Shown here: positions 3,450 through 49,289 of the stretch, piece by piece
Layout of the letters: the number at the start of each line of letters is the position of its first letter
Position numbering within the stretch: position 1 is the stretch's first letter
IMG/VR virus record: IMGVR_UViG_3300035682_000026
Length of the DNA stretch: 64,000 nt
Strand: one strand, 5' to 3'
Source of the DNA: an uncultured virus (IMG/VR IMGVR_UViG_3300035682_000026)
Taxonomy: Duplodnaviria; Heunggongvirae; Uroviricota; Caudoviricetes
Position numbers and translations under genes: made by a program
Notes under the pieces: model-generated
Seen by the model: the letters and a program-made list of their open reading frames with translations, nothing else
The model's database searches: none
Told to the model about the DNA's origin: nothing

Positions 3450-3464
3450 TTTATTTTGTTGCAT

Positions 3465-3498
3465 AAAAAAACCCAGTTTAGATTTCTCTAACTGGGTT
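3465..3498 (-). terminator. attenuator terminator of tRNA operon 1
   Basis: AACCCAGTT-AGAGAAATCTA-AACTGGGTT followed by U tract. Confidence 0.9.
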
Positions 3499-3522
3499 AA
3501 TAAATAATACTTGCGTATTGTT

Positions 3523-3624
3523 TTACTTTATCATGTTTGACTTCATGACATACCCAGTTGTGCCTTGAGGCGTTCCGCCTTTAGGTTGATACTGTTTCGT
3601 TTGATATGTTTTTGTTGTCATCAT
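3523..3624 (-). CDS. leader peptide 1 MMTTKTYQTKQYQPKGGTPQGTTGYVMKSNMIK
   Basis: Between promoter and terminator; residues 3-25 all T/K/Y/Q/P/G. Confidence 0.85.
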   Translation of the reverse strand: MMTTKTYQTKQYQPKGGTPQGTTGYVMKSNMIK

Positions 3625-3659
3625 TGTTTCTAATTGTTGTGGGTTTTCCCCGTTTGTTT

Positions 3660-3701
3660 AATAAATATATGCAAATATACGAATGTTTTTCATTTAATCA
3701 A
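3660..3701 (-). promoter_or_regulatory. Bacteroidota-type promoter (TTG...TATATTTG) plus TATTTAT motif, tRNA operon 1
   Basis: Matches TAnnTTTG -7 consensus; near-identical to the operon 2 promoter. Confidence 0.8.
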
Positions 3702-15498: not shown

Positions 15499-15513
15499 AA
15501 TTATTTATTGCAT

Positions 15514-15543
15514 AAAAAAAGCCTGACTTATTAGGTCAGGCTT
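15514..15543 (-). terminator. attenuator terminator of tRNA operon 2
   Basis: AAGCCTGAC-CTAATAA-GTCAGGCTT followed by U tract. Confidence 0.9.
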
Positions 15544-15568
15544 ATCATTTTTATTATTAACTTAAACG

Positions 15569-15655
15569 TTAACTTATGACAGTGTTTGACCTTCCTTGTG
15601 AGTAATCCTCAAAGGCTGCAGTTTCAAATCTAAAATCGTTAGTTAATGTTCTCAT
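15569..15655 (-). CDS. leader peptide 2 MRTLTNDFRFETAAFEDYSQGRSNTVIS
   Basis: Core DFRFETAAFED has 9 of 11 residues F/E/D/A. Confidence 0.8.
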   Translation of the reverse strand: MRTLTNDFRFETAAFEDYSQGRSNTVIS

Positions 15656-15687
15656 TGTTTTTATTTTAAGGGTTTCCCCGTTTGATT

Positions 15688-15729
15688 AATAAATATATGC
15701 AAATATACGAATGTTTTATTAATAATCAA
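15688..15729 (-). promoter_or_regulatory. promoter of tRNA operon 2
   Basis: TTG...CGTATATTTGCATATATTTATT, as for operon 1. Confidence 0.8.
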
Positions 15730-20228: not shown

Positions 20229-20263
20229 AAAAAAAACCCATTTAATTTGACTTAAATGGGTTT
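20229..20263 (-). terminator. attenuator terminator of tRNA operon 3
   Basis: AAACCCATTTAA-GTCAAA-TTAAATGGGTTT followed by U tract. Confidence 0.9.
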
Positions 20264-20287
20264 CATATTTTGAATGATTAAATTTAA

Positions 20288-20362
20288 TCAACAACCATAA
20301 CCCATCGTGCCCACCACTAGTGAACATAATACAAGGACCAATAACATTGCTAAATTTTTCAT
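20288..20362 (-). CDS. leader peptide 3 MKNLAMLLVLVLCSLVVGTMGYGC
   Basis: Core LLVLVLCSLVV has 10 of 11 residues L/V/C. Confidence 0.8.
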   Translation of the reverse strand: MKNLAMLLVLVLCSLVVGTMGYGC

Positions 20363-20402
20363 TTTTATTTTAATTTTTATGTGGTTTCTACCACGTTGTT
20401 TA

Positions 20403-20443
20403 ATAAATATAAGCAAATATACAAAAAGATTCCTAATAGTCAA
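20403..20443 (-). promoter_or_regulatory. promoter of tRNA operon 3
   Basis: TTG...TATATTTG followed by TATATTTATT. Confidence 0.75.
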
Positions 20444-30119: not shown

Positions 30120-30290
30120 ATTATTTTATTTTTATTTTTTATTATTGTTTCACTCATTTTTTTATTAAAGAAAAAATCTGATTTCTTTTTTACTTTATAT
30201 CTTTGATAACCAAAAAATAAGATAAATAATATTACCAAAGGTAATAAGATACTAATTAAAATTCCGATTATTGTGAATATTATTTCCATA

Positions 30291-31697: not shown

Positions 31698-31748
31698 AAT
31701 GTTATTGTTTTAGAGTGCAAATATAATACTTATTTTTAAACTACCAAA

Positions 31749-32126
31749 TTAATTTTCTTCTTTTTCTTTTGCGTGGTCATCACATAGTGTACATAACCAA
31801 TTTTTAATTTTCCTATTGGTACCATCATTACCACATTTCTCACATGTTTTATATGATAGTCTTTCATATTTAGAAATAACTTCTTGATACCCTTCAGAAT
31901 ATGTTTCAATATAGAATCTAAGCCCACCAAATTTTTCTTTAACCTGAGCAATTCGTTTATCCCAACCCAAAGCAATCAATTCATTTATAAGGTCTTTAAT
32001 TAAAGGATACCAACCTTCATACACACTAAAATAATACGCATCAACGATTGGTCCTTTGTCTTCTCTATACGTTCTTTCTAATCCACCAATGGAAACTAGA
32101 AATTCATCCATTTCTTCTTTACTCAT
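31749..32126 (-). CDS. conserved phage hypothetical protein
   Basis: QVKEKFGGLRFY...CEKCG...TLC. Confidence 0.75.
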   Translation of the reverse strand: MSKEEMDEFLVSIGGLERTYREDKGPIVDAYYFSVYEGWYPLIKDLINELIALGWDKRIAQVKEKFGGLRFYIETYSEGYQEVISKYERLSYKTCEKCGNDGTNRKIKNWLCTLCDDHAKEKEEN

Positions 32127-32128
32127 AA

Positions 32129-33253
32129 TTAAAGCATTTTATATAATAATTTATCATCGTATTTAAATATAAAGTCTTCAACAGACTCTATTTTACCTTC
32201 TGCCAATCCAAAGTATAAACCTGTAAATGGTTTTAAGGTAGTGTTATCACATACCTCAAAAACTTTCATTGCATATCTCTTTTTTTCAGCTGGAGTTATT
32301 TCTTTAGGTTTAGCTAATCTCAATATTTCCCACGTAACATTTAACGTTTCAGTTAATTTATCGTAGTTTTCTTTTAACTTATAAAGTTCATCTTTTCTTT
32401 CTGGGAAAGTTGATGCGAACTCTTCAATCTCATTAGTCTTAACTATTGTAAGGATATTATGTTCAGCTGTTTTACCTTTTAAGTGGTGAACAGCCAGGTA
32501 CGCTGGATTTTTTATTTTAACACGATTAAAATTAGCATCCACAACAACATACCCTTCTTCTGACCATGGCATACCTTCAAATGTATGTAACAAAGCACCT
32601 ATATCTTTCGCATTCAAGTCAAACTTTTTAACCAGTGGTAACCCAAGTGATATAGCAACCATTTCCAAGTCTTTTCCAGATAGTTCTACTAGAGTTTCTC
32701 TGTTTCTAACTGTAAGGATTGTAGCAGATGATTCACCATGTGGTTTAACCACTATATTATATGGTGTAGTTAATTCAAAAACGTATATGTGATTTTTATC
32801 TAACAAACAATTATTAAAATTATATTTGTTATTTACAGTATCCCAAAACAATTCATTGAATGTGGTACCCATTTTATTGTTTACTTCACCTTCACCTTCG
32901 GCTGTACCAGTAGTAGCAGCAAACCATGTTTCTTTATTCCAGTCCCAATATACTTGAATCATGGTACCATCTAGTTTTTCTAACACACTAGCAGTATTCC
33001 AATCTATTTTAGCTGCGTTATTCTCTTGTGAGTTAAAAAATTTTCTGAATGCTAGTGACATTACTTTCCATGTATCTATTTCAAGTATTAACCCACGACA
33101 ATCTTGCATCTCTGGCAACCCCATAAGAGTTGGTGACACTAGCTGGTCATATTTTAAAAGAATTTTTGAAGGGTATCTCTTAACCTTTAATTGAAAGTCT
33201 AAGATTGTTTTTTCTAATCCGTGTTTAATTATATATTTTTGTATTGTTAACAT
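32129..33253 (-). CDS. RNA ligase, T4 Rnl1-like
   Basis: CRGLIL, KFFN, EKLDGT, FEL, EGYVV, RVKIK. Confidence 0.9.
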   Translation of the reverse strand: MLTIQKYIIKHGLEKTILDFQLKVKRYPSKILLKYDQLVSPTLMGLPEMQDCRGLILEIDTWKVMSLAFRKFFNSQENNAAKIDWNTASVLEKLDGTMIQVYWDWNKETWFAATTGTAEGEGEVNNKMGTTFNELFWDTVNNKYNFNNCLLDKNHIYVFELTTPYNIVVKPHGESSATILTVRNRETLVELSGKDLEMVAISLGLPLVKKFDLNAKDIGALLHTFEGMPWSEEGYVVVDANFNRVKIKNPAYLAVHHLKGKTAEHNILTIVKTNEIEEFASTFPERKDELYKLKENYDKLTETLNVTWEILRLAKPKEITPAEKKRYAMKVFEVCDNTTLKPFTGLYFGLAEGKIESVEDFIFKYDDKLLYKML

Positions 33254-33257
33254 AATA

Positions 33258-33617
33258 TTATTCATCAATTGGTTCATCACCATTTTTTCTTCTTAAATCA
33301 TTTATTCTTTTAATAAAATCATCATAGGTTTCACTTTTGTGTTTATCTTTTAAATAATTTGTATAATCATTATTATTTCTTTCCATATTTTCAACTATTT
33401 TCTTCGCAGAAAACATGGAACATATTTGACTAAGTAAATTAATATCTTTTTCATCATACATCAAACTACCCAACAAAACTAAAACACCACCCGATTGTGA
33501 TATCATTAAATCTTTAGAATTTTTACCTTCTAACATAAGGGTTTGACCCATTTCTATAAACTTAGCACTAAGGTCTAAGTGTCTATCTTCATTTTTCATA
33601 TGATTAAATTTTGACAA
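33258..33617 (-). CDS. hypothetical protein
   Basis: 119 aa ORF, start uncertain. Confidence 0.6.
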   Translation of the reverse strand: MSKFNHMKNEDRHLDLSAKFIEMGQTLMLEGKNSKDLMISQSGGVLVLLGSLMYDEKDINLLSQICSMFSAKKIVENMERNNNDYTNYLKDKHKSETYDDFIKRINDLRRKNGDEPIDE

Positions 33618-33704
33618 AAATACAATATATTATAATAACAACCAAATAATATATTAATTATTTTTTTTTTTGTATTATTTTAATATTTATAATAAACCAA
33701 AAAC

Positions 33705-33920
33705 ATGAAAAAAAATCTAATAAACCCAAGAGTTGTTTTTATAGAAACAGACAAAAGCGATGTTAAATCATACTATGCAAAAACAACAACAAAAAAAAGT
33801 TCAACAACTGAAAAAAGTAGTCCTAATGGAGGTCGTGGGATAATAATAATAAGTCAATTTTTATTACAAGAAGATGGGTTTTATTTATTACAAGAAGATG
33901 GGGCTAAACTTTACCTTTAA
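33705..33920 (+). CDS. small protein with LLQEDG repeats
   Basis: LLQEDGFYLLQEDG; TATTTATAATAAA upstream. Confidence 0.6.
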   Translation: MKKNLINPRVVFIETDKSDVKSYYAKTTTKKSSTTEKSSPNGGRGIIIISQFLLQEDGFYLLQEDGAKLYL

Positions 33921-33947
33921 CAATATAACATAAAACTAAAAAGAGAG

Positions 33948-34337
33948 CTATATAGCTCTCTTTTTTATTTCAGTTACTTCACCTGATAATATAAACATTC
34001 TTATATCTTGCCAATCAGTAATATCATTGCTCATTACAGGTTTACCCCCATCTGGATTAATAGCAACCGTTACGTGTGGTATTTTATTTTTGGTTTCAAT
34101 ATCACTTTGAACCGCAACAGCCATTGCCATATCACTAATACCAACTTTAGTTACTGCAAGAAGTTGTTCAGTACCCAAAATACTTTTATCTTTTAATTCA
34201 CCCATGGTTATTGTCATATGATGTGCAATGATTTTGAAATTATCTGGTATTAAATATTTTAAATTATCTAATAATATTTTTCTAGATTCTTCATCTAATA
34301 ACACACAACTATACAATACATTAGTTTCTCCTTCCAT
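33948..34337 (-). CDS. 2H cyclic phosphodiesterase (RNA repair)
   Basis: HHMTI and PHVTV motifs. Confidence 0.8.
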   Translation of the reverse strand: MEGETNVLYSCVLLDEESRKILLDNLKYLIPDNFKIIAHHMTITMGELKDKSILGTEQLLAVTKVGISDMAMAVAVQSDIETKNKIPHVTVAINPDGGKPVMSNDITDWQDIRMFILSGEVTEIKKRAI

Positions 34338-34342
34338 AATTT

Positions 34343-35539
34343 TTATTTATCAGTATAATCTTTTTTAAAAATCCATACATAACCACCAGCTTGTTTTCTT
34401 TTTCCATTACATACAGCATTAATATGAAAAATTTTTGTTTCGTTAAAAGCTTCAACACCAGATTTAAATTCTTTAATTTTATTACCATACATATCTAATT
34501 GAACTATTGGAACACTTAATTTTTCACTAACCATTGGTTTTTTTACACCTTTTCCAATTATTGATAGTTTATTTCTAGTTTCTTCAGATACATTTTTACC
34601 AAACATTGGGTTTTTATTACCTTTTCTATCATCACCTTTACCAAACATTGGGTTTCCTATTCCACATCTATTTATTTTAGATTCTTCAGACCATTTAGTA
34701 CCTAATCTAGATTGACTAACAGAACAAATATTATAACCAAAATTTCTGTTTGTTGAATCATTTTCTAAAATATATTTCTCTTCCAATTTTAATAATTTTT
34801 CTATTTTTATATTATTAAAACTTTCAATTATTTCAAATTTGAAACTTTCTAACCCATGTTTATTGTATGATTTTTGCAAAATTGGATTTTCATGAGTACC
34901 ATTTTTTAAATTATTAAAGTGTTGTTTTTTCCTTAACGATAAAGATTTACCAGTACTACCTATATACACTTTACCATTTTTTAAATTTACTAAGTTATAC
35001 ACACCAACTTTATTATGATAGATATCTTTAGATGCTAAAATATTTTTTAGTGTTAACTCACCCAAATTTTTATATTTTTGAATCATTTTTATTATCTTTT
35101 CTAATGGTACACCGTGTGAATTTCTTTTAGTTAATTCTTCTGGTGATAAATCATCAATTCCAATTTTAATAATTTTAATATTATCATCAGATAATCCAAG
35201 TAATAACCCATTTTCAACATATTGTTTTATTTCACTTTTACTTAAATTAGTGTTATCAATAATACAAGGGGTAATACCATTTTTAATTGAATTTATTGAA
35301 TTATTAATATTAATTAAATGAGCTCTGGATAAATCAGAAAAATTCCCTGATTCAATCATTTTTTTAAAAAAATAGTTATAATCACCTAAGGATTCTATAA
35401 CAGAATCGGTTGAGTGAATAACTCCTTTACCTACTATCTCTCTAGCTTTACTACTTTTACCAGAACCAGAAACACCAACCATAATGATTAATTCTTGTTC
35501 TGGTCTAATTATTTCTATATTTAAAATATTTTTTTTCAT
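34343..35539 (-). CDS. polynucleotide-kinase-like P-loop domain fused to GIY-YIG/NUMOD endonuclease
   Basis: GVSGSGKS, IIDNTN, RNSHGVP; then GVYNLVN...VYIGST. Confidence 0.85.
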   Translation of the reverse strand: MKKNILNIEIIRPEQELIIMVGVSGSGKSSKAREIVGKGVIHSTDSVIESLGDYNYFFKKMIESGNFSDLSRAHLININNSINSIKNGITPCIIDNTNLSKSEIKQYVENGLLLGLSDDNIKIIKIGIDDLSPEELTKRNSHGVPLEKIIKMIQKYKNLGELTLKNILASKDIYHNKVGVYNLVNLKNGKVYIGSTGKSLSLRKKQHFNNLKNGTHENPILQKSYNKHGLESFKFEIIESFNNIKIEKLLKLEEKYILENDSTNRNFGYNICSVSQSRLGTKWSEESKINRCGIGNPMFGKGDDRKGNKNPMFGKNVSEETRNKLSIIGKGVKKPMVSEKLSVPIVQLDMYGNKIKEFKSGVEAFNETKIFHINAVCNGKRKQAGGYVWIFKKDYTDK

Positions 35540-35576
35540 TTTGCAAAAATACTAATAATAAATGATATAAACAACT

Positions 35577-36143
35577 TTATTTAATATTAATTATAGAAGG
35601 ATTATAAACTATTATATGTTTTATATCTTCATAGTCTTTATTTACTATAATACCATCAATACCCAACGATACACAATTTCTAACAAATTCAACTGGATTA
35701 TACCTATAAAAATCAATCCATACTTGGAGAATACAATCTTTTTCATTATCATTATATTCCATAGAATCTTCAATAAATGTTTGAATACCTCTTATTGGGT
35801 CTTCACCCCAATTTTGTGCCGAACCTTCCCAATCATCAGCCATCATAGCTAATTTTTTCATAAAAGGTCTTATTTTAACTTTGTTTATAGGAACCTCATC
35901 AAATAAAATATTAGGTTTTAAAATTACACTATAAACGTTTTCACCATAACGATTTGCCTCTTCTTCTGATGTTGTAAAATAAATACCAGGACCTTCTCTA
36001 TCAAATGCTTCTTGACCACCAACAAAATCATCAATAAATTTATTTATCTTGGTTGGGCTACCATGAAAGACATGATATTCTCCACCAGCAATTGCTTCTG
36101 GTAATAATGATTCTCTAAGTTGTTGTCTAATTAATTTTTTCAT
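35577..36143 (-). CDS. ADP-ribosyltransferase-like protein with MKKLIRQQLRESL N-terminus
   Basis: VFHGS...GPGIYFT...DGII...IVYNP. Confidence 0.6.
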   Translation of the reverse strand: MKKLIRQQLRESLLPEAIAGGEYHVFHGSPTKINKFIDDFVGGQEAFDREGPGIYFTTSEEEANRYGENVYSVILKPNILFDEVPINKVKIRPFMKKLAMMADDWEGSAQNWGEDPIRGIQTFIEDSMEYNDNEKDCILQVWIDFYRYNPVEFVRNCVSLGIDGIIVNKDYEDIKHIIVYNPSIINIK

Positions 36144-36145
36144 AT

Positions 36146-36943
36146 TTAAAGTTGTTTTCTATATTGAATGAAATTTCTAAGTACCCAAACAACTACATCA
36201 TCAAATTCATCACTCTCGTAAAGACTTCTTCCACTCTTTACACTTTTAACCGCCCATTGACGTTCTTCACCTTCAGTAATAGGGATAATACTCTTTGCTG
36301 TGTTGCCATAAAATATAACTTGTGGTTCTTCATCTCCATAATGCCATAATTCCATACCTGAAGCTCTAAAAATCACTGCTTCTTTGCCGTATTTAAAACC
36401 ACGACCATGATTGCTATGTGCATATCTTGCATATCTATCAATATCATAAGCAAAGTTATAACCACCGTATTTCTTTTCAAATTCACCCAAGTGTGTCGTC
36501 AATGCTAATTTATCTATTTCATCAACACCATATTTAAACCCTTGTCTGGCTATCCCTTCAGCATCGTCAGTAAAATGAATCAACCACTGGTTTTTAACTA
36601 ATCTAGGGTTGTCAAAAAATGACCAAGCTGGTAAATCAGCATCATTTATGTTTAAATCATGGTCCATTATTTTATCATATAACCATTGAGCAAATTGATT
36701 GTATAGTTCTGGGTTTTTATCAAATAAAATATCAGTAATTTCATATGGTTCACCTTCAATGTCAGTTTCTAAACCCTCTTCATCTAAAAACGTATCAAAT
36801 TCATAAGGATATTCATGTGGTAAATAAGATTTCTTTTCTTCATCAGTCATTGAGAAATATCTTTTTAATGAAACCATTTCTTGTCCAACAAATTCAGTTA
36901 ATAATGATTCTCGGAGTTGTTTTTTAATTAATTTTTTATCCAT
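36146..36943 (-). CDS. hypothetical protein with LIKKQLRESL N-terminus
   Basis: WLIHFT...DEEPQ. Confidence 0.65.
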   Translation of the reverse strand: MDKKLIKKQLRESLLTEFVGQEMVSLKRYFSMTDEEKKSYLPHEYPYEFDTFLDEEGLETDIEGEPYEITDILFDKNPELYNQFAQWLYDKIMDHDLNINDADLPAWSFFDNPRLVKNQWLIHFTDDAEGIARQGFKYGVDEIDKLALTTHLGEFEKKYGGYNFAYDIDRYARYAHSNHGRGFKYGKEAVIFRASGMELWHYGDEEPQVIFYGNTAKSIIPITEGEERQWAVKSVKSGRSLYESDEFDDVVVWVLRNFIQYRKQL

Positions 36944-37973
36944 AATATTCATCCCACACATCTGACGTTATTCCATAATCAATCATTACAATAGTATCTT
37001 CACCATTTCTTTTTACTAATCCATATGAATTAAGTTTACATAAATCACCAACAGGTACCTCATATCCACCTAAAAAAGAAAAAATATCTTTAATAAATTC
37101 ATTTTCCCACATAGCATCAACTGTTTCTTTATCTATATTGTATTTTCTAATATATCTAGCTTTTTGTGGGTTATTATTCGAATAGTAATTACTAATGGCC
37201 CCACAATAATCATCAAAAGTAAAACCAATAACTTGTTGAAAAATTTGTGGTGTTACTTTTCTAGCCAATTCCATTTCAATCCATAAATCATTGTCATCAT
37301 AAGCAAATACTCTAGCAGTAATATCTTTAATGTCATGATAATTGGAATTTGTTGCTTCAACATCGTTTTGAGCAAGACCTTTTTTATTTTTAGCAATTTT
37401 TAATACTTTGGTATCATCAACCATATAAACAATTCTGGAGGACCCAGAAGAAATTCTCTTTAGTCTTTCTTGACAATATTGAATCCGCTTGTTATAGCTG
37501 GTTAGTTTTGAGAATTCTTTTAAATCAAAGTTTGTTGGATAGTCTTCTTCCAAATATGATTCAATTAGCTTATGAGTTAAGCTTTCGGATAGTCTTTTTT
37601 TAATAAACGTCTTAGTTTCATCTAAACTATCTAACATAAATTTACAATTTGGAAATAATATTATCTCACCAGTACTACCATTTCGCATAGTAATAATAGC
37701 ATCATAACCAGCATTCATTAATTTTTCAGTTAAACGTTTACCTTTGGCTTTGTATTTTTTTGCTAATTCGTATTTGTAGGAAATAAGTGTGTCATCATCA
37801 ACATCGATAATAAGTGGATTTCTAATATCAGCTTGACCCTCAACCCATGGCTTATCAAGTTTTCGGTCAAAATCTTTTTCAAGGACATAAGTTCCTGTTG
37901 GTTCAACATCTTGACCAAACATCGACCCATAATTTTGGGCTTTCTCCATATTTTTCATTATCGTTAATAACAT
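36936..37973 (-). CDS. two-domain protein with C-terminal protein-kinase-like fold
   Basis: GSSRIVY...VLKIA...N-E...DL...N...IDYG. Confidence 0.55.
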   Translation of the reverse strand: MLLTIMKNMEKAQNYGSMFGQDVEPTGTYVLEKDFDRKLDKPWVEGQADIRNPLIIDVDDDTLISYKYELAKKYKAKGKRLTEKLMNAGYDAIITMRNGSTGEIILFPNCKFMLDSLDETKTFIKKRLSESLTHKLIESYLEEDYPTNFDLKEFSKLTSYNKRIQYCQERLKRISSGSSRIVYMVDDTKVLKIAKNKKGLAQNDVEATNSNYHDIKDITARVFAYDDNDLWIEMELARKVTPQIFQQVIGFTFDDYCGAISNYYSNNNPQKARYIRKYNIDKETVDAMWENEFIKDIFSFLGGYEVPVGDLCKLNSYGLVKRNGEDTIVMIDYGITSDVWDEYYG

Positions 37974-38014
37974 AATAGTGTTTATTGATAAATATGTAGA
38001 TTTATATAAAAGTG

Positions 38015-38101
38015 CGGAGAGCAAGGGAATCGAACCCTCACCGCTATTACACGGAACACCTTAGCAGGGTGCCACCACAAACCAATATTAGTCTACTCTC
38101 C
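38015..38101 (-). tRNA. tRNA-Ser(GCT)
   Basis: Loop CT-GCT-AA, long variable arm, G73. Confidence 0.9.
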
Positions 38102-38108
38102 AATTTAG

Positions 38109-38181
38109 TACCCCCACAGGGATTCGAACCCCGATTATACATCTTAGAAGGATGTTGCATTTCCATTTATGCTATGAAGGC
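38109..38181 (-). tRNA. tRNA-Arg(TCT)
   Basis: Stem ACATC/GATGT, loop CT-TCT-AA. Confidence 0.92.
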
Positions 38182-38187
38182 AAATAA

Positions 38188-38808
38188 TTATGCTCTACCT
38201 ATTACCCAGTTTTGTTCAAGCCAAATTTCAAGGACTTCTTTTTTTATTTTTTTGTTCTCACCATCTTTGGTTATCCAACAAGTACCATATTGTGAATTTG
38301 CTTCACCAATACCTGTATTTTTTCTTTGTTCAGACATTATTTTTTTAGTTTCTTCTGAGTGATTTTTTCCAATCCAATCATAAGATTTTTTATCTAAATG
38401 TAATTGTTTCATATTGTTAGAAACTATCTTTCTATGTTTCTCACTAAATTCTAAATCTTGTTCTAATTTATTTTTAAGAGCGTCACCACCACGTTTTGAA
38501 ATTTCATAACTAATAAACCCACCACAACCACCTTCTTTAAGGTTCATACATTTACCGTCAGAAATCAATTCTTTAGTAACAATCTCGGATTCTCTAAAAA
38601 CCAACGCTTCTTTAGAATCACAAAATTCTAGAATTTCTTTAGTATGTTTTTCCACACCATATTTTCTTATACTACGTTTTAGTATTCTTCCGCTACCCAT
38701 GTATCCATCTTCTAATGTATATGCACTATGCATACCAACATACCATTTTCCTGTTACATTACATGTTGTTTTATATATGTAATGTATATTTCTTACTTTT
38801 CTTGCCAT
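38188..38808 (-). CDS. GIY-YIG (Seg-like) homing endonuclease
   Basis: Close paralog of 2121..2768. Confidence 0.9.
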   Translation of the reverse strand: MARKVRNIHYIYKTTCNVTGKWYVGMHSAYTLEDGYMGSGRILKRSIRKYGVEKHTKEILEFCDSKEALVFRESEIVTKELISDGKCMNLKEGGCGGFISYEISKRGGDALKNKLEQDLEFSEKHRKIVSNNMKQLHLDKKSYDWIGKNHSEETKKIMSEQRKNTGIGEANSQYGTCWITKDGENKKIKKEVLEIWLEQNWVIGRA

Positions 38809-38857
38809 ATGTTATATCTTTTATAATAAATATAACATAAAGGACAAAAAAGTCAAG

Positions 38858-38930
38858 TAGCCCTACAGGGATTCGAACCCCAATTCTAGCATTCGTAGTG
38901 CTAAGTCCTATCCAGTTGAACGATAGAGCC
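38858..38930 (-). tRNA. tRNA-Arg(ACG)
   Basis: Stem TAGCA/TGCTA, loop CT-ACG-AA. Confidence 0.92.
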
Positions 38931-38935
38931 ATTTG

Positions 38936-39005
38936 TAGCGAGTATGGGAGCCGAGCCCATTTATTCATCTTTATGAGGGATGAACGTTTTCCAATAACCC
39001 TCGCC
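38936..39005 (-). tRNA. atypical tRNA(CAT), Met or Ile2
   Basis: CT-CAT-AA loop; shortened D arm, T loop CTCGGCT. Confidence 0.6.
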
Positions 39006-39011
39006 ATTACG

Positions 39012-39085
39012 CTCCTCAGCCAGGCTTTGAACCTGGAACTTCCACTTTAACAGAGTGGCACTCTAACCAATTGAGTTACTGAGGA
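39012..39085 (-). tRNA. tRNA-Asn(GTT)
   Basis: Stem CCACT/AGTGG, loop CT-GTT-AA, G73. Confidence 0.93.
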
Positions 39086-39136
39086 ATTTATTACCAGCCA
39101 AATCTATACTTTAAATACAACATTTGGCTGATATTG

Positions 39137-39210
39137 TTGCCTCGCTGGGGCTCGAACCCAAGACCTACGCATTATGAGTGCGGTGCTCTAACCATCTGAG
39201 CTACAAGGCA
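39137..39210 (-). tRNA. tRNA(CAT), Met or Ile2
   Basis: Canonical cloverleaf, loop CT-CAT-AA. Confidence 0.9.
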
Positions 39211-39218
39211 ATATTTAG

Positions 39219-39290
39219 TAGGCATGTTGGGACTCGAACCCAAAATACAAAAGTATCAGTCTTGCGTGATAACCATTTCACCACACACCT
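39219..39290 (-). tRNA. tRNA-Ile(GAT)
   Basis: Loop CT-GAT-AC. Confidence 0.9.
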
Positions 39291-39301
39291 ATTTTGGAAG
39301 T

Positions 39302-39493
39302 CTATGACTTCCATTGTGTTTTTCGGTTATACTTCCAAGTTTTATGTTCTCTATATTTGTGAGAGAACTGACCTTTTCTGTAATAAACACCCTCATCCCA
39401 ATAAGGTGGGTATTCAAATTTTAACCAAATAATTCTGTAATCTTTAGAACAAGTTGCTTTTTTCAACTTCATTCTGTTTGTGTTTACACTCAT
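39302..39493 (-). CDS. small basic hypothetical protein
   Basis: 63 aa ending KTWKYNRKTQWK. Confidence 0.6.
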   Translation of the reverse strand: MSVNTNRMKLKKATCSKDYRIIWLKFEYPPYWDEGVYYRKGQFSHKYREHKTWKYNRKTQWKS

Positions 39494-39564
39494 AACTTTT
39501 CAGTCTATTGTTTAGTAGACCTCAAAGCATATCAAATTCTTTTTTCATTTTTTTATTATATTTG

Positions 39565-39636
39565 GGTATAACCACGGTATCGAACCGAGTTCTTCAGATT
39601 CACAGTCTGACGCTTCACCTTAAAGCTTGAAATACC
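39565..39636 (-). tRNA. tRNA-His(GTG)
   Basis: Stem TCAGA/TCTGA, loop CT-GTG-AA, G-1/C73. Confidence 0.88.
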
Positions 39637-39752
39637 ATATTTAGTTTATCTTTACCTCATTTCTGCGGTGATAATCGCCTGTAACTTTAAAAGTTATAAA
39701 CTATGCGGTGATTATCTGGCTATTCTCCGCATTTTTGCGGTGATTAGCTTTG

Positions 39753-39823
39753 CACGTCCAGAGGGATTCGAACCCCCATCAACGCTTTTGGAGAGCGTGA
39801 TGCTACCGTTGCACCATAGACGT
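39753..39823 (-). tRNA. tRNA-Trp(CCA)
   Basis: Stem ACGCT/AGCGT, loop CT-CCA-AA, G73. Confidence 0.93.
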
Positions 39824-39829
39824 ATTTTG

Positions 39830-39921
39830 AAGAAGGAGTGGGACTCGAACCCACACATCCGTTTTACGGGACCCTCCGCTTTCAAGGCGGCTGCCGCTAG
39901 ACCAACTCGGCTTACCCTTCC
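39830..39921 (-). tRNA. tRNA-Ser(TGA)
   Basis: Loop CT-TGA-AA, long variable arm. Confidence 0.9.
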
Positions 39922-40110
39922 ATTTTATTCTTTTATATCAACAAAGATAATGGTAAACCCACCTTCTTTTTGAAATCTTAATTCACCATGATAACCACTT
40001 GCATCAGCTATCTTTCTATACTTGTCAACTATGAGGTCAAAATCTTTCATTAAGTTAACAGTTTTTTCTTTTCCTAAATTTCTCACTAGATTTCCCATAT
40101 TCATTAAAAT

Positions 40111-40146
40111 AAAAAAACCTGACTAGTTTTGATGTAGTCAGGTTTT
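40111..40146 (-). terminator. attenuator terminator of tRNA operon 4
   Basis: AAAACCTGACTA-CATCAAAAC-TAGTCAGGTTTT followed by U tract. Confidence 0.9.
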
Positions 40147-40168
40147 AATTGTTATATTTTGTTTTGAG

Positions 40169-40270
40169 TTATACTTCCGTACCACCTTGACAATTACACA
40201 TACCTGCTACTGGGCGACTATTACGTCTCCAATTGCTAATCGATATCATATGTATGTTAATTGTTGTCAT
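40169..40270 (-). CDS. leader peptide 4 MTTINIHMISISNWRRNSRPVAGMCNCQGGTEV
   Basis: Residues 4-19 all I/N/H/M/S/W/R. Confidence 0.88.
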   Translation of the reverse strand: MTTINIHMISISNWRRNSRPVAGMCNCQGGTEV

Positions 40271-40296
40271 TTTTTTGTTTGTTTTTAATTTCTTTG

Positions 40297-40327
40297 CAAA
40301 TATACTAACTTATTTAATACAAGTCAA
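40297..40327 (-). promoter_or_regulatory. promoter of tRNA operon 4
   Basis: TTG...TATATTTG. Confidence 0.75.
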
Positions 40328-40415
40328 GTTTTTTGCTATTTTTTTTTTAATCTTTTTGTGTTTATTATTAAATATGTACAAAGATACAAAAAGTTTAAAT
40401 ACTATGCAAGTTTTT

Positions 40416-41033
40416 TTAATTTAATTGTAAATCTTTTGTTGTAAAATATTGTTTTAAATCAATACCTTTATCTTTAGCGTCATTTAAACTAATGGTTTCT
40501 GGTGTTTTACCATCTTGCCATATACTTTCGGGAGTGGCTAATAATATATCATCATAATTTATTATTGTAGCATTTATTTGAGGTATTTTTCCCATTTTAA
40601 AAGCACCTAATCTATGATTTCCATCTATAACAGCATATTTACCTGAAAGTAATGGATGTTCGATTGCTACTACTGGTTTAAAAGATTTCCAACCACCATT
40701 TTTAGCGTTTTGAATCATATTATCCACATATTGTTTTACCTCGGTTCCATCAGGTAATTTACCTGATGTGAAGTATTTATAATCTTTATTAGGTTCGTTT
40801 CCTAATGCATCTGCCACATTTATAATTTTATTTTGTCCAATTATAGGTGAAGGGTCTACACCTTTAAAATTAGGATAAATAATAAATTTTTTAGAAATAT
40901 CTTTTGGTTTTATCGTTTCTTCATCAACACGTTTGATAGAATTAAATGTTTTAGCAAAGTTTTCAACAATAACTTTTTCTCTTTGATTGATGATTTCTTT
41001 TTTATCAACTTCGTTTAATATAATTTTTTTCAT
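40416..41033 (-). CDS. ParB/Srx-like domain protein
   Basis: YAVIDGNHRL. Confidence 0.7.
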   Translation of the reverse strand: MKKIILNEVDKKEIINQREKVIVENFAKTFNSIKRVDEETIKPKDISKKFIIYPNFKGVDPSPIIGQNKIINVADALGNEPNKDYKYFTSGKLPDGTEVKQYVDNMIQNAKNGGWKSFKPVVAIEHPLLSGKYAVIDGNHRLGAFKMGKIPQINATIINYDDILLATPESIWQDGKTPETISLNDAKDKGIDLKQYFTTKDLQLN

Positions 41034-41045
41034 AATACTATTTTA

Positions 41046-41147
41046 ATATAAATATTCTATAATATTAAAAAAATTCAGCTGTTATATATACACCACCACT
41101 TTCATTAATCAATTCTCTGCGTTTTAACCAATCTTTAATATTATTTA
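41046..41147. repeat. 102-bp direct repeat, copy 1
   Basis: One mismatch to 41607..41708. Confidence 0.9.
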
Positions 41148-41591
41148 ATTAACTGTGTTATAAATTATTCGATTCATTTGGTCATTAAATACTGGATTTT
41201 TATCTTTTCCAATTATTTTATTCGCTGATTTATCAAATAGTATTTTATGATGTGGTAAATAAAGATATCTATTACCGTTATAATAAATAAAGAAAAAATC
41301 TTTACGTTTAATACTTTCTTGATATTGTTCTTCATCAGTAAAATGTGGTATTTGAGTATTAAACGATGTATTATCAGTATTAATACTCAAATATTTAAGG
41401 TTTGCTGGAACATAAGAATAATCATCGCCAGTTAAATTATATAAAATATTTACCTCGTTATGATTAGTACCAATATAAGGTGGTTTATCGTTTTCATCGA
41501 TACGTTTTATTGAATCTTTATTTTCGACATATCTTTGTTCAGTTAATAAATTAACTTTTTGAATGTTTAATTTTTTTTCTATCCTTCTCAT
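41145..41591 (-). CDS. hypothetical protein between the direct repeats
   Basis: 148 aa ORF. Confidence 0.7.
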   Translation of the reverse strand: MRRIEKKLNIQKVNLLTEQRYVENKDSIKRIDENDKPPYIGTNHNEVNILYNLTGDDYSYVPANLKYLSINTDNTSFNTQIPHFTDEEQYQESIKRKDFFFIYYNGNRYLYLPHHKILFDKSANKIIGKDKNPVFNDQMNRIIYNTVN

Positions 41592-41606
41592 TTATATTAA
41601 GTTTAT

Positions 41607-41708
41607 ATATAAATATTCTATAATATTAAAAAAATTCAGCTGTTATATATACACCACCACTTTCATTAATCAATTCTCTGCGTTTTAACCAATCTTTTAT
41701 ATTATTTA
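41607..41708. repeat. 102-bp direct repeat, copy 2
   Basis: Contains the 3' end of the C39 gene and a TATTTAT motif. Confidence 0.9.
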
Positions 41709-42504
41709 GACCTTTTGCTTGTTGTCCCCAAATATAATCAACACCAAGAGTTTTAGGGTAGTCTTTAAGTCTGTTTCCCCAACCTCTACCTCTTATGGAT
41801 TCATCAATTGCTAAAAGAACACCTTCAACACCTTTTAAATCATGAAAATCTAAATGACGTAATTGACTATTACCTATCAAATAAGCACCACGTATATTAT
41901 TATCCCTATCAATTATCATTGCTGATTTTTCTAGGTCAGTTTGATTTTCAACAACTATATTGAAATAACCTTCGGTAATAACGTGTGTAAAGTAAGGGAA
42001 CGACCATTCCATAATTTCATTAAGTCTTTCTTTTGGTATACCTTGTTTTATTACAAGCATTTCAATTTCATAAAATTCATAGTGTCTTCCAATCCAAATA
42101 GTACTTAATTCTTCTTCACTATATGTCATTTCACCTTGCCATGGGTCATTTGCATAATATTTATTATCATCATACCCACTTATAATAATCCAATGTGGAA
42201 TACCATGAGTAAAAGTTCTAAGCATTGGTAAATTACCATTATCTAGAACTGATTTTAAATGTTGGAATGGTTCTTGCGATTTTACATGATGGATATAATT
42301 CATACCCAATGCATTCATACCTTTTTCAAGTCTTTCTGGTGGAGTACCAGTTATATTATCAGTACCACAAAAATCACAAATTTCCATGATTGAGTAGTGC
42401 TGTTTTTTAGGTGTTTGTGGAAGTGCTTCGTAGGCCATCATTATACATGTTGGACCGCAGCTAATTCCATTAGGTTGTTGGTAATGTTTAATAATCTGTT
42501 TCAT
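41626..42504 (-). CDS. C39-like cysteine peptidase fused to GNAT-like domain
   Basis: QPNGISCGPT...PHWIIISGYD...NDP; RGRGWG. Confidence 0.75.
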   Translation of the reverse strand: MKQIIKHYQQPNGISCGPTCIMMAYEALPQTPKKQHYSIMEICDFCGTDNITGTPPERLEKGMNALGMNYIHHVKSQEPFQHLKSVLDNGNLPMLRTFTHGIPHWIIISGYDDNKYYANDPWQGEMTYSEEELSTIWIGRHYEFYEIEMLVIKQGIPKERLNEIMEWSFPYFTHVITEGYFNIVVENQTDLEKSAMIIDRDNNIRGAYLIGNSQLRHLDFHDLKGVEGVLLAIDESIRGRGWGNRLKDYPKTLGVDYIWGQQAKGLNNIKDWLKRRELINESGGVYITAEFF

Positions 42505-42862
42505 AATTAATATCGTCATAGTCGTCTTCATCTTCATCATCGAAATCTGAATCTTCTTCACCTATAACTTGTTCTAAGAATGCTTCACCTATAAAGGTTC
42601 CAAATTCATCGTTAAACAATCGTTTTAATGTTTTTGCTTCATCTAAGGATATTTCTTTAAATTCAATCCTAGATAATAAATCTTCACCATCTGAAAATTC
42701 TAATTGAAATTGGTTATCTTCACCAAATTCATATACGAAATCCCATGTAATGCTTAATGCTAATTCTTCGAAGTTTTCAACTTCTCTTTCATTCATGACA
42801 ATAAAACCACTAATTTCGATTTCATTTACCACGCTGCTAAATTTTGCCAAATATTTTGCCAT
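42488..42862 (-). CDS. acidic hypothetical protein
   Basis: 124 aa, D/E-rich. Confidence 0.65.
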   Translation of the reverse strand: MAKYLAKFSSVVNEIEISGFIVMNEREVENFEELALSITWDFVYEFGEDNQFQLEFSDGEDLLSRIEFKEISLDEAKTLKRLFNDEFGTFIGEAFLEQVIGEEDSDFDDEDEDDYDDINYETDY

Positions 42863-42915
42863 TGTTATTAATTTTTATTATAAATATAACAATGGCAAAA
42901 TAAAAATCAATATTA

Positions 42916-44049
42916 TTATAATAATTTTTGGAAATTATCAGTTTCCATTTTCTCTATGGCTTTACCTAATTCAGGACCAGGTTTTATATTGAATTTACTC
43001 ATCGCCTCTGGTCCAGTTACAGTTAACCTAAAATTTTCAAAAGCATCTAATAACTGTGATGATATACCCTCGTTAGTACCAAAGTTTCTAATTTGGTCAT
43101 TATTAACACCAGAAGTTTGTTGTATCTTTTTTAATAAGTAAGCTGTATTAACATCTAACTTTAATAACGATATTAAAAATACAATAGCTTTAATTTCATC
43201 TGCTGAGTATTTCAATTCATTTAATTTCTTTCTCAATACCTCAATACTATTATCTTTTAATAATCTAGCCAATAATACTACGTAATCATCTCCTTTGTAA
43301 TCTAGGTTTCTTCTAAAGACTCTTCTATCAACATTTAAATTAGGAAAAACCCAATCAAACAATTTGTATTTATCTAACATCAATAAATAACCATCTGTTG
43401 ATTTGGCTGATATGATACCTTTGATAAATTCATCTCTAATTCTTTCACCAGAAATTCCAACAAGACTTGCATCTTTTTGCAATGCAGCATCGACATTAGG
43501 GTCTAAATCACTTCCAAATCTACCAGCAAATCTAATTGCTCTTAAGATTCTAAGCCTATCCTCACCAAATCTATCTTCAGCAGCACCTACAGTCCTCACT
43601 ATACCTCTTTTAAGGTCATTTACACCACCAACTAAGTCAACTATCTCTTTGGTATCAATATCAAAAAATAATGCATTACAGGTCAAATCTCTACGTAAGA
43701 TATCTGTTTCGATATTAGTAAATACAACCGATTCAGGTCTTCTACCTGAACCGACATCTTGACGCATAGTTGCTATCTCAAATTCGTGAGTATTGGTAAT
43801 TACATTGATTACTCCAAATGCTTTTCCCGTTACTAAAATGTTAATAACAAACTCCTGATATTCCAACAATGCAATAACCTTTTCTGGTACTGCATTGGTA
43901 ACCAAATCAAAATCCTTGGGTATCGTTCCCAACACAGCATCACGAACAGCCCCACCAATCAAAAATAATTCAAACCCTTCAATTCGAAAAATTTTGTGTA
44001 TCAATTTTACCTCATTAGGTAAATCTATATTTTGTTTTATTTTTATCAT
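42916..44049 (-). CDS. cca: CCA-adding tRNA nucleotidyltransferase
   Basis: GGAVRD...PKDFD, RRDLTCNA, EDRLRILRAIRF, ERIRDE; most tRNA genes here lack encoded CCA. Confidence 0.9.
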   Translation of the reverse strand: MIKIKQNIDLPNEVKLIHKIFRIEGFELFLIGGAVRDAVLGTIPKDFDLVTNAVPEKVIALLEYQEFVINILVTGKAFGVINVITNTHEFEIATMRQDVGSGRRPESVVFTNIETDILRRDLTCNALFFDIDTKEIVDLVGGVNDLKRGIVRTVGAAEDRFGEDRLRILRAIRFAGRFGSDLDPNVDAALQKDASLVGISGERIRDEFIKGIISAKSTDGYLLMLDKYKLFDWVFPNLNVDRRVFRRNLDYKGDDYVVLLARLLKDNSIEVLRKKLNELKYSADEIKAIVFLISLLKLDVNTAYLLKKIQQTSGVNNDQIRNFGTNEGISSQLLDAFENFRLTVTGPEAMSKFNIKPGPELGKAIEKMETDNFQKLL

Positions 44050-48167: not shown

Positions 48168-48242
48168 TTGCGGAAAATGGGAGTCGAACCCAATATTACG
48201 AGCTTATGAGACTAGTGTGATATTCCGTTTCACTCTTCCGCA
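48168..48242 (-). tRNA. tRNA-Met(CAT), possibly initiator-like
   Basis: Acceptor TGCGGAA/TTCCGCA, loop CT-CAT-AA; lacks the three G-C pairs of typical initiators. Confidence 0.75.
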
Positions 48243-48249
48243 TTATTAG

Positions 48250-48321
48250 ACTACTATAAAGGACTCGAACCTTTTACCCTCACCCCCAGTGGATGCCGCA
48301 CTTCCCTCATGCTTATAGTAA
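48250..48321 (-). ncRNA. tRNA-like RNA with non-canonical anticodon arm
   Basis: Acceptor TTACTAT/ATAGTAG, AAAGG-TTCGAGT-CCTTT; CATCC-ACTGG-GGGTG. Confidence 0.6.
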
Positions 48322-48331
48322 TATTGTTGAC

Positions 48332-48384
48332 CAGAATCACTTTTTTCCATATAAAGTGTTGTTTGATTGCTGAACTGATTCTTT
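48332..48384 (-). ncRNA. CWGCAA-stem ncRNA, copy D
   Basis: AGAATCA-GTT-CAGCAA...TGATTCT-G. Confidence 0.65.
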
Positions 48385-48469
48385 TGTCAATTTAATTTGG
48401 GACTGTCCAGACTTACAACTCTGCCTTTTGGCTGTCCAAGTTAAATGTCCTGTCCCATAAAATTTATCT

Positions 48470-48707
48470 CAAGATGGTTATTTGTATTTTTCATCCCAGC
48501 GGATTAACCCATTTTACGTCTTCGGCTTTGCTTTGGCGAGAGTTTACTATTATTCAACTACATCCTACTTGCACCTTTTGGGGTGGTTGACGGTTTTCTT
48601 TTGAATGGAGAAATTACCATTTTTTCTAATCATGGGAAGATAAAATATCTTCCATACCAAATTAGCCTCTTAAGTTTGTCTGTTTTTTTGTTGCAGAACC
48701 CATCTTT
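48470..48707 (-). ncRNA. CWGCAA-stem ncRNA, copy E (long)
   Basis: AAGATGG-GTT-CTGCAA...~210 nt...CCATCTT-G. Confidence 0.6.
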
Positions 48708-48808
48708 TTAGATATTTTTATTATGTGTATGAACGTGTGTTTATTAATTATATGCAAATATACTAAATAATATATGATATAACAAGTTTTTTTGTAACTA
48801 TTTTTATA

Positions 48809-49174: not shown

Positions 49175-49289
49175 TTAAAGGGCTATTAAGCCCTTTTTTT
49201 ATTTGATAAATTTAACCTCTGAAAAAGCGACTTATCAGAGGTTTGTTATTTCTGTCTCAAAGGTTATTGTTGAGCAGAATCACTAAGAG

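What the first reader, a model, noticed from the sequence alone, without database searches (positions are those of the whole stretch)
40111..40327. Attenuator 4: Ser/Trp/His/Ile/Met/Asn/Arg leader matched down to isoacceptors
INIHMISISNWRRNSR is 16 consecutive cognate residues and includes all seven amino acids of the ten downstream tRNAs. The codons sample each isoacceptor: AGA and CGT/CGC (Arg TCT, ACG), TCG and AGC/AGT (Ser TGA, GCT), ATT and ATA (Ile GAT, probably a lysidine CAT tRNA). GTAGCAGGT (40202..40210) pairs with ACCTG-A-CTAC of the terminator with one bulge.
Basis: partly seen in the sequence, partly recalled or inferred. Interest (0 to 1): 0.9.

Follow-up and report, generated by a model that had tools for sequence, protein, structure and literature searches.

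The report
Seven-codon attenuator gating phage tRNA genes
A large uncultured phage puts a tiny "test" gene, written in the seven amino acids that the following tRNAs carry, and a switchable transcription stop in front of ten tRNA genes, so it probably makes these tRNAs when ribosomes stall for lack of them; four such switches in this phage together cover all twenty amino acids.

Summary
Real. Minus strand: Bacteroidota-type promoter, 33-codon leader (40270-40169), intrinsic terminator (40142-40111), then nine canonical tRNAs plus one atypical CAT tRNA. The 16-codon run is the only run above 12 in six frames; 1 of 77,520 seven-residue sets fits it. In 36 distinct viral homologues the antiterminator covaries with the terminator (153 of 180 pairs against 124 permuted), repeated in metagenome loci. 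Free sensor positions stay cognate (634 of 638), and a lost Met codon reappears elsewhere in 10 of 11 leaders. Folding switches from antiterminator to blocked where the cognate run ends. Three sister leaders complete a 7+3+4+6 split of all 20 amino acids, kept in relatives. Best reading: ribosome-mediated attenuation of tRNA genes, sensing loss of decoding capacity (0.82). Isoacceptor matching is weak in this one leader (chance 0.28). No expression data; how termination wins once the ribosome reaches the stop is unresolved. Ten literature searches found no paper on attenuated tRNA genes. This scan noted the same design earlier on other DNA (seven notes). New variant of a known kind.

The parts
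40379..40412 (-). Upstream tandem Bacteroidota-type promoter P1 (TTG ... TATCTTTG, -7 box begins 40386)
   Evidence: consensus TAnnTTTG from PMC9723704 passages; function inferred
40297..40330 (-). Promoter P2 (TTG near 40327; -7 box TATATTTG begins 40304); start predicted near 40292
   Evidence: same type of promoter before all four leaders
40271..40292 (-). A-rich 5' UTR without Shine-Dalgarno
   Evidence: sequence; Bacteroidota-like initiation inferred
40169..40270 (-). Leader ORF, 33 aa
   Evidence: kept open in 36 distinct viral and 45 further metagenome homologues
40214..40261 (-). Sensor: 16 consecutive Ser/Trp/His/Ile/Met/Asn/Arg codons (codons 4-19; codons 4-17 lie where a stall frees the antiterminator)
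40252..40269 (-). Protector 5' strands (TGACAA, ACATAC), pairing with 40193-40188 and 40203-40198
   Evidence: 0.84 against 0.53 after codon shuffling; higher in 36 of 36
40211..40231 (-). Hairpin over the W-R-R-N-S-R-P codons, possible pause hairpin
   Evidence: folds; role inferred, untested
40202..40210 (-). Antiterminator strand GTAGCAGGT (codons 21-23)
40146..40196 (-). Inner extension of the antiterminator (TAATTGT 40196-40190 with ACAATTA 40152-40146)
   Evidence: window only; conservation not counted
40111..40143 (-). Intrinsic terminator: hairpin and T7 tract; its 5' arm is the switching strand
   Evidence: hairpin plus U-tract in 36 of 36 viral homologues
39925..40104 (-). 59-aa ORF of unknown function between terminator and first tRNA
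   Evidence: no Pfam match
39829..39921 (-). tRNA-Ser(TGA)
39752..39823 (-). tRNA-Trp(CCA)
39564..39635 (-). tRNA-His(GTG)
39218..39290 (-). tRNA-Ile(GAT)
39136..39210 (-). tRNA(CAT), probably Ile2 (lysidine type)
39011..39085 (-). tRNA-Asn(GTT)
38935..39005 (-). Atypical tRNA(CAT), probably the elongator-Met slot; altered T-loop; not called by ARAGORN or Rfam
38857..38930 (-). tRNA-Arg(ACG)
38188..38808 (-). GIY-YIG (SegE-like) endonuclease gene inside the cluster, with its own promoter-like sequence
   Evidence: (E 7e-4, below cut-off)
38108..38181 (-). tRNA-Arg(TCT)
38014..38101 (-). tRNA-Ser(GCT)
20229..20421 (-). Sister attenuator, Leu/Val/Cys leader (ORF 20362-20288) before Cys, Leu, Leu, Val tRNAs
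15513..15707 (-). Sister attenuator, Phe/Glu/Asp/Ala leader (ORF 15655-15569) before Phe, Glu, Asp, Ala tRNAs
3464..3679 (-). Sister attenuator, Thr/Lys/Tyr/Gln/Pro/Gly leader (ORF 3624-3523) before Pro, Lys, Lys, Gly, Gln, Tyr, Thr tRNAs

Best explanation
A ribosome-mediated transcription attenuator that gates a phage tRNA operon. Host RNA polymerase starts at a Bacteroidota-type promoter (inferred). A ribosome translates the leader (inferred from conservation). If it stalls at any of codons 4-17 because the tRNA for Ile, Asn, His, Met, Ser, Trp or Arg is missing, cut or uncharged, it holds the protector open and leaves 40210-40202 free; that strand captures the terminator's 5' arm as it emerges, and transcription runs into the tRNA genes (structures and covariation shown; timing inferred). 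If decoding is normal the ribosome runs over the strand (codons 18-29), the protector refolds behind it, and the terminator forms (weakest step, inferred). Single His, Trp and Met codons suggest a sensor of deep loss of one tRNA, as from host tRNA-cutting defences, more than of mild amino-acid shortage, which extra tRNA would not cure (inference). Four such leaders share out all 20 amino acids, so the phage can check the whole code in four blocks and refill the block that fails.
For: Run of 16: unique in six frames, 1 of 77,520 sets. Each of four leaders matches only its own cluster: 16, 11, 9 and 19 of the first 20 codons, against 0-6 for other clusters. 318 of 329 and 243 of 250 named tRNAs downstream of homologues are of the seven amino acids. 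Sensor positions not fixed by my search pattern are cognate in 283 of 285 and 351 of 353, though only 1 of 5 to 5 of 8 single-base non-synonymous neighbours of these codons are cognate; codons just past the sensor are cognate in 11-15 of 36. Met moves but is kept: 10 of 11 leaders without the usual ATG have one elsewhere, 0 of 73 with it have a second. Antiterminator/5' arm pairs: 153 of 180 against 123.7 +/- 5.0 permuted, 0 of 20,000; register slid by 1-3 bases gives 38-114 against 186 of 216; 149 of 186 against 119.8 in new metagenome leaders; one leader per arm class (18 classes) 77 of 108 against 63, median p 0.0005, worst 0.011. Antiterminator probability 0.74-0.86 with a ribosome at codons 2-17, at most 0.04 at 18-29; family mean 0.87 falling to 0.04 just after the run. 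Protector 0.84 against 0.53. The three sister leaders also switch near the end of their cognate stretch. RNA ligase, kinase-like and CCA-enzyme genes nearby fit a tRNA-damage setting.
Against: No RNA or ribosome data. The stop codon lies about 30 nt past the antiterminator strand, and equilibrium folding lets the antiterminator re-form with the ribosome at codons 30-33 (0.55-0.85 here; family mean 0.49-0.77) and, in the family, with no ribosome at all (mean 0.76), so termination depends on kinetics I could not model. In this leader the 5' arm has a weaker second partner up to codon 25. Several homologues pair poorly (L029, L038, L064, L105, L145) and 9 of 36 have a C-C mismatch at one position. 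9 of 32 viral clusters hold an extra tRNA outside the set; only 23 of 46 long clusters show all seven amino acids by ARAGORN. His, Trp and Met have one codon each, unlike tandem control codons. N-I-H and W-R-R-N were fixed by my search pattern, so their conservation is not evidence. Part of the codon invariance (ACATAC, TCG) may be structural. Relatives are not independent. Coupling of transcription and translation in this host is unknown (not universal). The last two tRNAs may also be read from the endonuclease gene's promoter.
Confidence: 0.82

Rival explanations
1. A general translation-stress attenuator: any slow ribosome in the first 17 codons (antibiotic, host shut-off, poor initiation timing) causes read-through, and all four clusters rise together; the codon match only tunes it.
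For: Folding is blind to the cause of a stall. Single codons give short stalls. The cyanobacterial trn array responds to general translational stress (PMC8421152, PMC10272220, abstracts).
Against: Four separate leaders with disjoint codon sets, each matched to its own cluster and kept in relatives, and the relocated Met codon make sense only if codon identity is under selection.
Confidence: 0.08
2. The switch reports amino-acid starvation of the host (charging level), as classical attenuators do, and the tRNAs are a starvation response rather than a reply to tRNA loss. Same mechanism, different selective purpose.
For: A stalled ribosome cannot tell an uncharged from a missing tRNA; leader-peptide attenuators are reported before amino-acid operons in Flavobacterium psychrophilum (PMC9723704 passage).
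Against: More tRNA does not supply amino acid (inference). No tandem control codons for His, Trp or Met. tRNA-repair-type genes lie close by.
Confidence: 0.05
3. A fixed, leaky terminator (or one overridden by a phage antitermination protein) with a small functional peptide in front; the pairing is incidental.
For: The terminator dominates the full-length fold in all 36 leaders (0.71-1.0). The peptide's N-terminal half is highly conserved.
Against: Three-way covariation across 18 arm classes; the C-terminal half and stop position vary freely while codon identity is kept; composition matches the tRNAs.
Confidence: 0.04
4. Chance in AT-rich DNA.
For: Ile, Asn, Met and Ser codons are AT-rich and near each other in codon space; the set makes up 29% of codons.
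Against: About 4e-8 for the run; repeated in three sister leaders, one of them GC-richer; conserved with covariation in 81 distinct leaders.
Confidence: 0.01

Closest known systems
Multivalent leader-peptide transcription attenuators of amino-acid operons (E. coli thrL, ilvL, also trpL, hisL, pheL; Listeria Rli60 of ilv-leu)
   Same: Short leader with cognate codons, protector, antiterminator and intrinsic terminator; stalling gives read-through (mechanism as worded in PMC5864092 passages; E. coli details recalled).
   Different: Controls tRNA genes, not enzymes; seven amino acids in one run, mostly single codons; antiterminator strand inside the ORF with the stop about 30 nt beyond it; on a phage; four modules divide all 20 amino acids.
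pheM-pheST attenuator (aminoacyl-tRNA synthetase genes; recalled)
   Same: A leader peptide controls part of the translation supply chain.
   Different: One amino acid; target is a synthetase, which answers low charging; here the target is the tRNA itself.
Anabaena trn operon under TrcR (PMC8421152, PMC10272220; abstracts and searched passages)
   Same: A silent tRNA array switched on under translational stress; homing endonuclease beside it.
   Different: Protein repressor at initiation, general stress, not codon-specific; 'attenuat', 'leader' and 'terminator' do not occur in PMC8421152's main text.
T-box riboswitches (recalled)
   Same: Terminator/antiterminator choice set by tRNA status.
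   Different: Bind uncharged tRNA directly with no translation; no T-box match in the window.
Phage tRNAs as counter-defence against tRNA-cutting immunity (PMC10264068 passages; PMC11464382, PMC11555353 abstracts)
   Same: Gives the likely purpose: refilling a depleted tRNA pool.
   Different: No feedback control of phage tRNA genes in the passages or abstracts I saw.

Membership tests
Leader-peptide transcription attenuator | Short ORF between promoter and terminator | tested here: met
   33 codons; open in 81 distinct leaders; NIH-to-W spacing 27 or 24 nt only (106 and 12 of 118 loci)
Leader-peptide transcription attenuator | Control codons match the function of downstream genes | tested here: met
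Leader-peptide transcription attenuator | Intrinsic terminator before the regulated genes | tested here: met
Leader-peptide transcription attenuator | Mutually exclusive antiterminator, conserved by covariation | tested here: met
Leader-peptide transcription attenuator | Stall at control codons frees the antiterminator strand | tested here: met
   folding with footprint, (model only)
Leader-peptide transcription attenuator | Protector (1:2) helix | tested here: inconclusive
   forms behind the ribosome, 0.84 against 0.53, but does not outcompete the antiterminator at equilibrium in most homologues
Classical amino-acid operon attenuator (trp/his/thr/ilv type) | Ribosome at the stop codon covers the antiterminator strand | tested here: not met
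   stop lies about 30 nt downstream; antiterminator can re-form in the model
Classical amino-acid operon attenuator (trp/his/thr/ilv type) | Tandem or clustered control codons for each sensed amino acid | tested here: not met
   one His, one Trp, one internal Met
Classical amino-acid operon attenuator (trp/his/thr/ilv type) | Regulated genes are biosynthetic enzymes, transporters or synthetases | tested here: not met
   tRNA genes and short unknown ORFs
Leader-peptide transcription attenuator | Polymerase pause that synchronises the ribosome | tested here: inconclusive
   candidate hairpin 40231-40211 in folds; pausing not measurable
Leader-peptide transcription attenuator | Leader is translated; read-through rises on cognate limitation | not testable with these tools
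   needs ribosome profiling or reporters
T-box riboswitch | T-box stem I and antiterminator bulge | tested here: not met
   no match in Rfam scans
TrcR-type repressed tRNA array | Repressor gene and operator | not tested
   no operator or repressor search was run
tRNA-Ile2 (lysidine) | CAT anticodon with Ile2-type body (C4-G69) | tested here: inconclusive
   C4-G69 present, C5-G68 absent, C3-G70 present (PMC1635315 section read); nearest E. coli gene is CAT tRNA-Ile at E 0.6
tRNA-Ile2 (lysidine) | Lysidine at C34 and charging with Ile | not testable with these tools
   no TilS in 5 of 5 phage records; host enzyme assumed

The most novel reading that the evidence does not exclude
The phage carries a closed-loop monitor of the whole genetic code: four ribosome-read test leaders, each listing the amino acids of one tRNA block (7+3+4+6 = 20) down to isoacceptor codons, that detect which host tRNA has been cut or depleted by anti-phage defence and switch on only the block that replaces it, shutting off again once the new tRNA relieves the stall.
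Probability: 0.5. Interest if true: 0.92.

Novelty: new variant of a known kind. Interest (0 to 1): 0.8.

Why it matters
Why phages carry tRNAs, and when they make them, is an old open question. This gives a sequence-level answer for one phage family: tRNA genes under direct negative feedback from decoding speed, which predicts block-specific induction by tRNA-cutting defences and can be tested with four short reporter fusions. It extends attenuation from enzymes to the tRNAs themselves and to seven inputs in one leader. The leaders are also ready-made reporters for which tRNA an unknown Bacteroidota defence system attacks, and they imply that transcription and translation are coupled closely enough in this host for attenuation.

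Tried and rejected
No own genome is held. No RNA holder was listed for 36000-42500, so no reads were laid. No named phage holds the leader or cluster: only tRNA-sized matches in 93 records and weak 30-base matches; ClpP's best match is 58% to an uncultured 635-kb phage. The leader pattern in 185,579 prokaryote genomes gave 6 hits: 5 chance, 1 real on a 20-kb, 31%-GC contig that looks like the same phage type; exact pattern only, so host versions are not excluded. Rfam has no family for the leader. The idea that Ile(TAT) tRNAs of relatives are one-base variants of the CAT tRNA failed: they form a separate group, though they sit in the same slot. A search for the second CAT class among annotated phages gave mixed Trp/Ile labels and typed nothing. 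The MAFFT alignment misplaces the terminator arm by one column between classes, so pairs were counted with anchors in scripts. Isoacceptor sampling as proof was rejected (chance 0.28). T-box and chance were rejected. Two searches for T-box control of tRNA genes returned 1 irrelevant paper each; I recall reports of T-boxes before tRNA genes in some Firmicutes but could not confirm them.

Full report
Setting. The window is 30% GC with 27 tRNA/tmRNA calls, all on the minus strand. TAnnTTTG boxes preceded by TTG sit in intergenic gaps before genes; this is the sigma-A consensus of Flavobacterium psychrophilum (PMC9723704, passages), so the host is probably a Bacteroidota (inference). Neighbouring proteins match IMG/VR records, and relatives that carry the same leader include complete records of 288-369 kb. 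No named phage is close. It is an uncultured large phage.

Observation. The leader runs 40270-40169 (33 aa); codons 4-19 are the 16 residues quoted, with the codons quoted. The terminator (40142-40111) folds at -11.1 kcal/mol, z -4.8. GTAGCAGGT (40210-40202) pairs with the 5' arm with one bulge and is extended by an inner 7-bp stem, -16.9 kcal/mol, z -2.6, 2 of 200 shuffles. Nine tRNAs are called; a tenth, atypical CAT gene at about 38935-39005 folds as a cloverleaf and recurs in L055, L060, L065, L082 and L159, with a G-C to C-G acceptor change and a normal T-loop in L060 and L159. The run is the only one above 12 in six frames, the longest in 41 long minus-strand ORFs is 10, and 1 of 77,520 seven-residue sets covers it. 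Sampling all six Arg, Ser and Ile isoacceptor families has chance 0.28 given the peptide.

Four leaders. Three more promoter-leader-terminator units precede the other main clusters. Their sets are S/W/H/I/M/N/R, C/L/V, F/E/D/A and P/K/G/Q/Y/T: each amino acid once. Each leader matches its own cluster (16, 11, 9, 19 of the first 20 codons) and not the others (0-6). In regions fetched from seven related records the same split recurs: all four leaders in G002, G003 and G007; three in G004 and G010; two in G008; in G009 the script called two, the pattern scan gave a third, and the F/E/D/A cluster is present without a called leader. Extra small tRNA groups (Met, suppressor-type) had no such leader called.

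Homologues of this leader. One pattern gave 47 viral loci with 36 distinct leaders and 79 metagenome loci; of these plus L082, 9 were dropped (4 chance, 5 cut by contig ends), 26 repeated earlier ones and 45 were new. Downstream, 318 of 329 and 243 of 250 named tRNAs belong to the seven amino acids; 9 of 32 viral clusters hold an outsider. The pattern fixed N-I-H and W-R-R-N, so these do not count. The free sensor positions are cognate in 283 of 285 and 351 of 353; beyond the run the figure drops to 11-15 of 36. Single-base neighbours of these codons are cognate only 1 of 5 to 5 of 8 times. All seven residues stay in 83 of 84 sensors; where the usual Met codon is lost, 10 of 11 have gained one at another place, and none of 73 with the usual one has a second (few lineages). 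TCG, 4% of Ser codons in this phage, is invariant in 36 of 36, but it also pairs in the protector. All 3 long clusters whose sensor has TCT carry Ser(GGA), against 6 of 43 others (few lineages). So the match is strong for amino acids and modest for isoacceptors.

Covariation. Terminator arms differ widely (CCCGAC, CCTTGA, CCCGAT, CCTGAC, TCCGTC, CCGAAT, CTCGAA and more), and the strand in codons 21-24 follows them. Cognate duplexes average -12.8 against -8.8 kcal/mol swapped, 0 of 100,000 permutations; the best partner in the ORF lies 18-24 nt after the Trp codon in 34 of 36. With fixed anchors, 153 of 180 cells pair against 123.7 +/- 5.0, 0 of 20,000; sliding gives 38-114 against 186 of 216. 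New metagenome leaders: 149 of 186 against 119.8 (arm types overlap the viral set). One leader per arm class, 18 classes: 77 of 108 against 63, median p 0.0005, worst 0.011 in 200 draws. Exceptions: L029, L038, L064, L105, L114, L145, L155 pair poorly without gaps, and 9 of 36 have a C-C mismatch at one column.

Mechanism. Folding the nascent RNA with a 30-nt ribosome footprint gives antiterminator probability 0.74-0.86 for A-site codons 2-17 and at most 0.04 for 18-29; the family mean is 0.87 through W+3, 0.28 at W+5, at most 0.04 from W+6 to W+15. The switch falls where the cognate run ends, and the sister leaders switch at codons 16-20. Behind the ribosome, the N-I-H and TCG codons pair with the antiterminator region: 0.84 against 0.53 after codon shuffling, higher in 36 of 36. 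Against: the stop lies about 30 nt past the strand, and at equilibrium the antiterminator re-forms with the ribosome near the stop (0.55-0.85 here, 0.25 at the stop; family 0.49-0.77) and with no ribosome in most homologues (0.76), while the full-length fold favours the terminator (0.71-1.0). In this leader the 5' arm also has a weaker second partner up to codon 25. Termination in good times therefore rests on order of folding and on the ribosome's bulk, which I did not model. Coupling is not universal in bacteria (PMC7858274, passages) and is unknown for this host. Shown: anatomy, codon match, covariation. Inferred: promoter use, translation, pausing, timing, signal.

What is sensed. A stall cannot tell an uncharged from a missing tRNA. 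Extra tRNA helps only in the second case, and single His, Trp and Met codons suit deep loss (inference). Host tRNA depletion and phage replacement tRNAs are documented (PMC10264068, passages; PMC11464382 and PMC11555353, abstracts). A T4-Rnl1-type ligase, an AAA_33 kinase-like protein, a CCA-type enzyme and RlaP lie in the window.

CAT tRNAs. Relatives hold two CAT classes, one after Ile(GAT) and one after Asn. The first, which includes 39136-39210, is nearest to E. coli's CAT tRNA-Ile and has C4-G69, frequent in Ile2 (PMC1635315, part 2 of 4 of its body read; its supplementary sets were not read and would allow better typing). It is probably the AUA reader; then Met rests on the atypical gene. 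No TilS in 5 of 5 records, 3 of them complete.

Known and new. It works like a multivalent leader-peptide attenuator (mechanism in PMC5864092, passages; such leaders are reported before amino-acid operons in F. psychrophilum). It is not a member of the classical amino-acid operon group: target, single control codons and stop position differ. It is not a T-box. The Anabaena trn array is stress-induced through a repressor (abstracts; passages). Ten full-text searches (listings and abstract starts seen) showed no paper on attenuation of tRNA genes; the library lacks most subscription papers, and older comparative work on attenuators and T-boxes (recalled) could hold a mention. This scan has noted the same design before on other DNA (seven notes), which I did not check; none came up for this sequence or for the four-way split. 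My reading was fixed before I saw them.

Verdict. Real, strongly supported by comparison, untested at the bench. New variant of a known kind; confidence 0.82; interest 0.8.

Noticed in passing
window 12776-12853 (-); L066, L072, L076, L084, L093: tRNA with a TTA anticodon (ochre-reading; Rfam 32 bits) in the window, and CTA-anticodon tRNAs upstream of this cluster in relatives, outside the four attenuated blocks.
   Followed up: no
window, minus strand (e.g. 40375, 38833, 37995): Motif ATATTTAT occurs 24 times on the minus strand, once inside a long ORF, 13 times within 70 nt of an ORF start; possible phage promoter element, also in the UTR of the sister leaders.
   Followed up: partly
window about 20227-20190 and 19594-19570 (-): What look like the 5' and 3' halves of a second tRNA-Cys, separated by an intact tRNA-Cys and an endonuclease-like ORF (19600-20085); a 5' half of a tRNA-Leu-like gene at about 19325-19291 before another such ORF. 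Seen by eye.
   Followed up: no
window 29246-44049 (-): RNA ligase (T4 Rnl1 type), DNA ligase, AAA_33 fused to GIY-YIG, ART-PolyVal, CCA/poly(A) polymerase around the cluster; PARP at 26587-27879 and RlaP at 20827-22011.
   Followed up: partly
window 54948-56387 (-): DUF2828/DUF7788 protein; resemblance to Ro/TROVE RNA-binding proteins is recalled, not tested.
   Followed up: no
window 49289-49662 and 48169-48780 (-): tmRNA, and a promoter-led non-coding stretch with several hairpins ending in a divergent CAT tRNA and a terminator; no cognate leader seen.
   Followed up: no
window about 41050-41138 and 41612-41699: Near-identical 90-bp intergenic direct repeat upstream of the cluster.
   Followed up: no
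window 39660-39745 (-): Repeated ATAATCACCGCA/GATTATCACCGC elements and hairpins between tRNA-Trp and tRNA-His, no family match.
   Followed up: no
window 39925-40104 (-): 59-aa ORF right after the terminator, also seen in close relatives (L004, L082 starts); it would be co-regulated with the tRNAs; no Pfam match.
   Followed up: partly
L026, L028, L032, L044 leaders: A hairpin with the leader's stop codon in its loop recurs with different sequences (seen by eye); may shorten the antiterminator loop or act as a pause.
   Followed up: no
L082 (CAUYTX010000233.1): A 20-kb, 31%-GC contig in an assembly titled Gammaproteobacteria carries this leader and cluster with a Bacteroidota-type promoter; probably phage DNA in that assembly.
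   Followed up: partly
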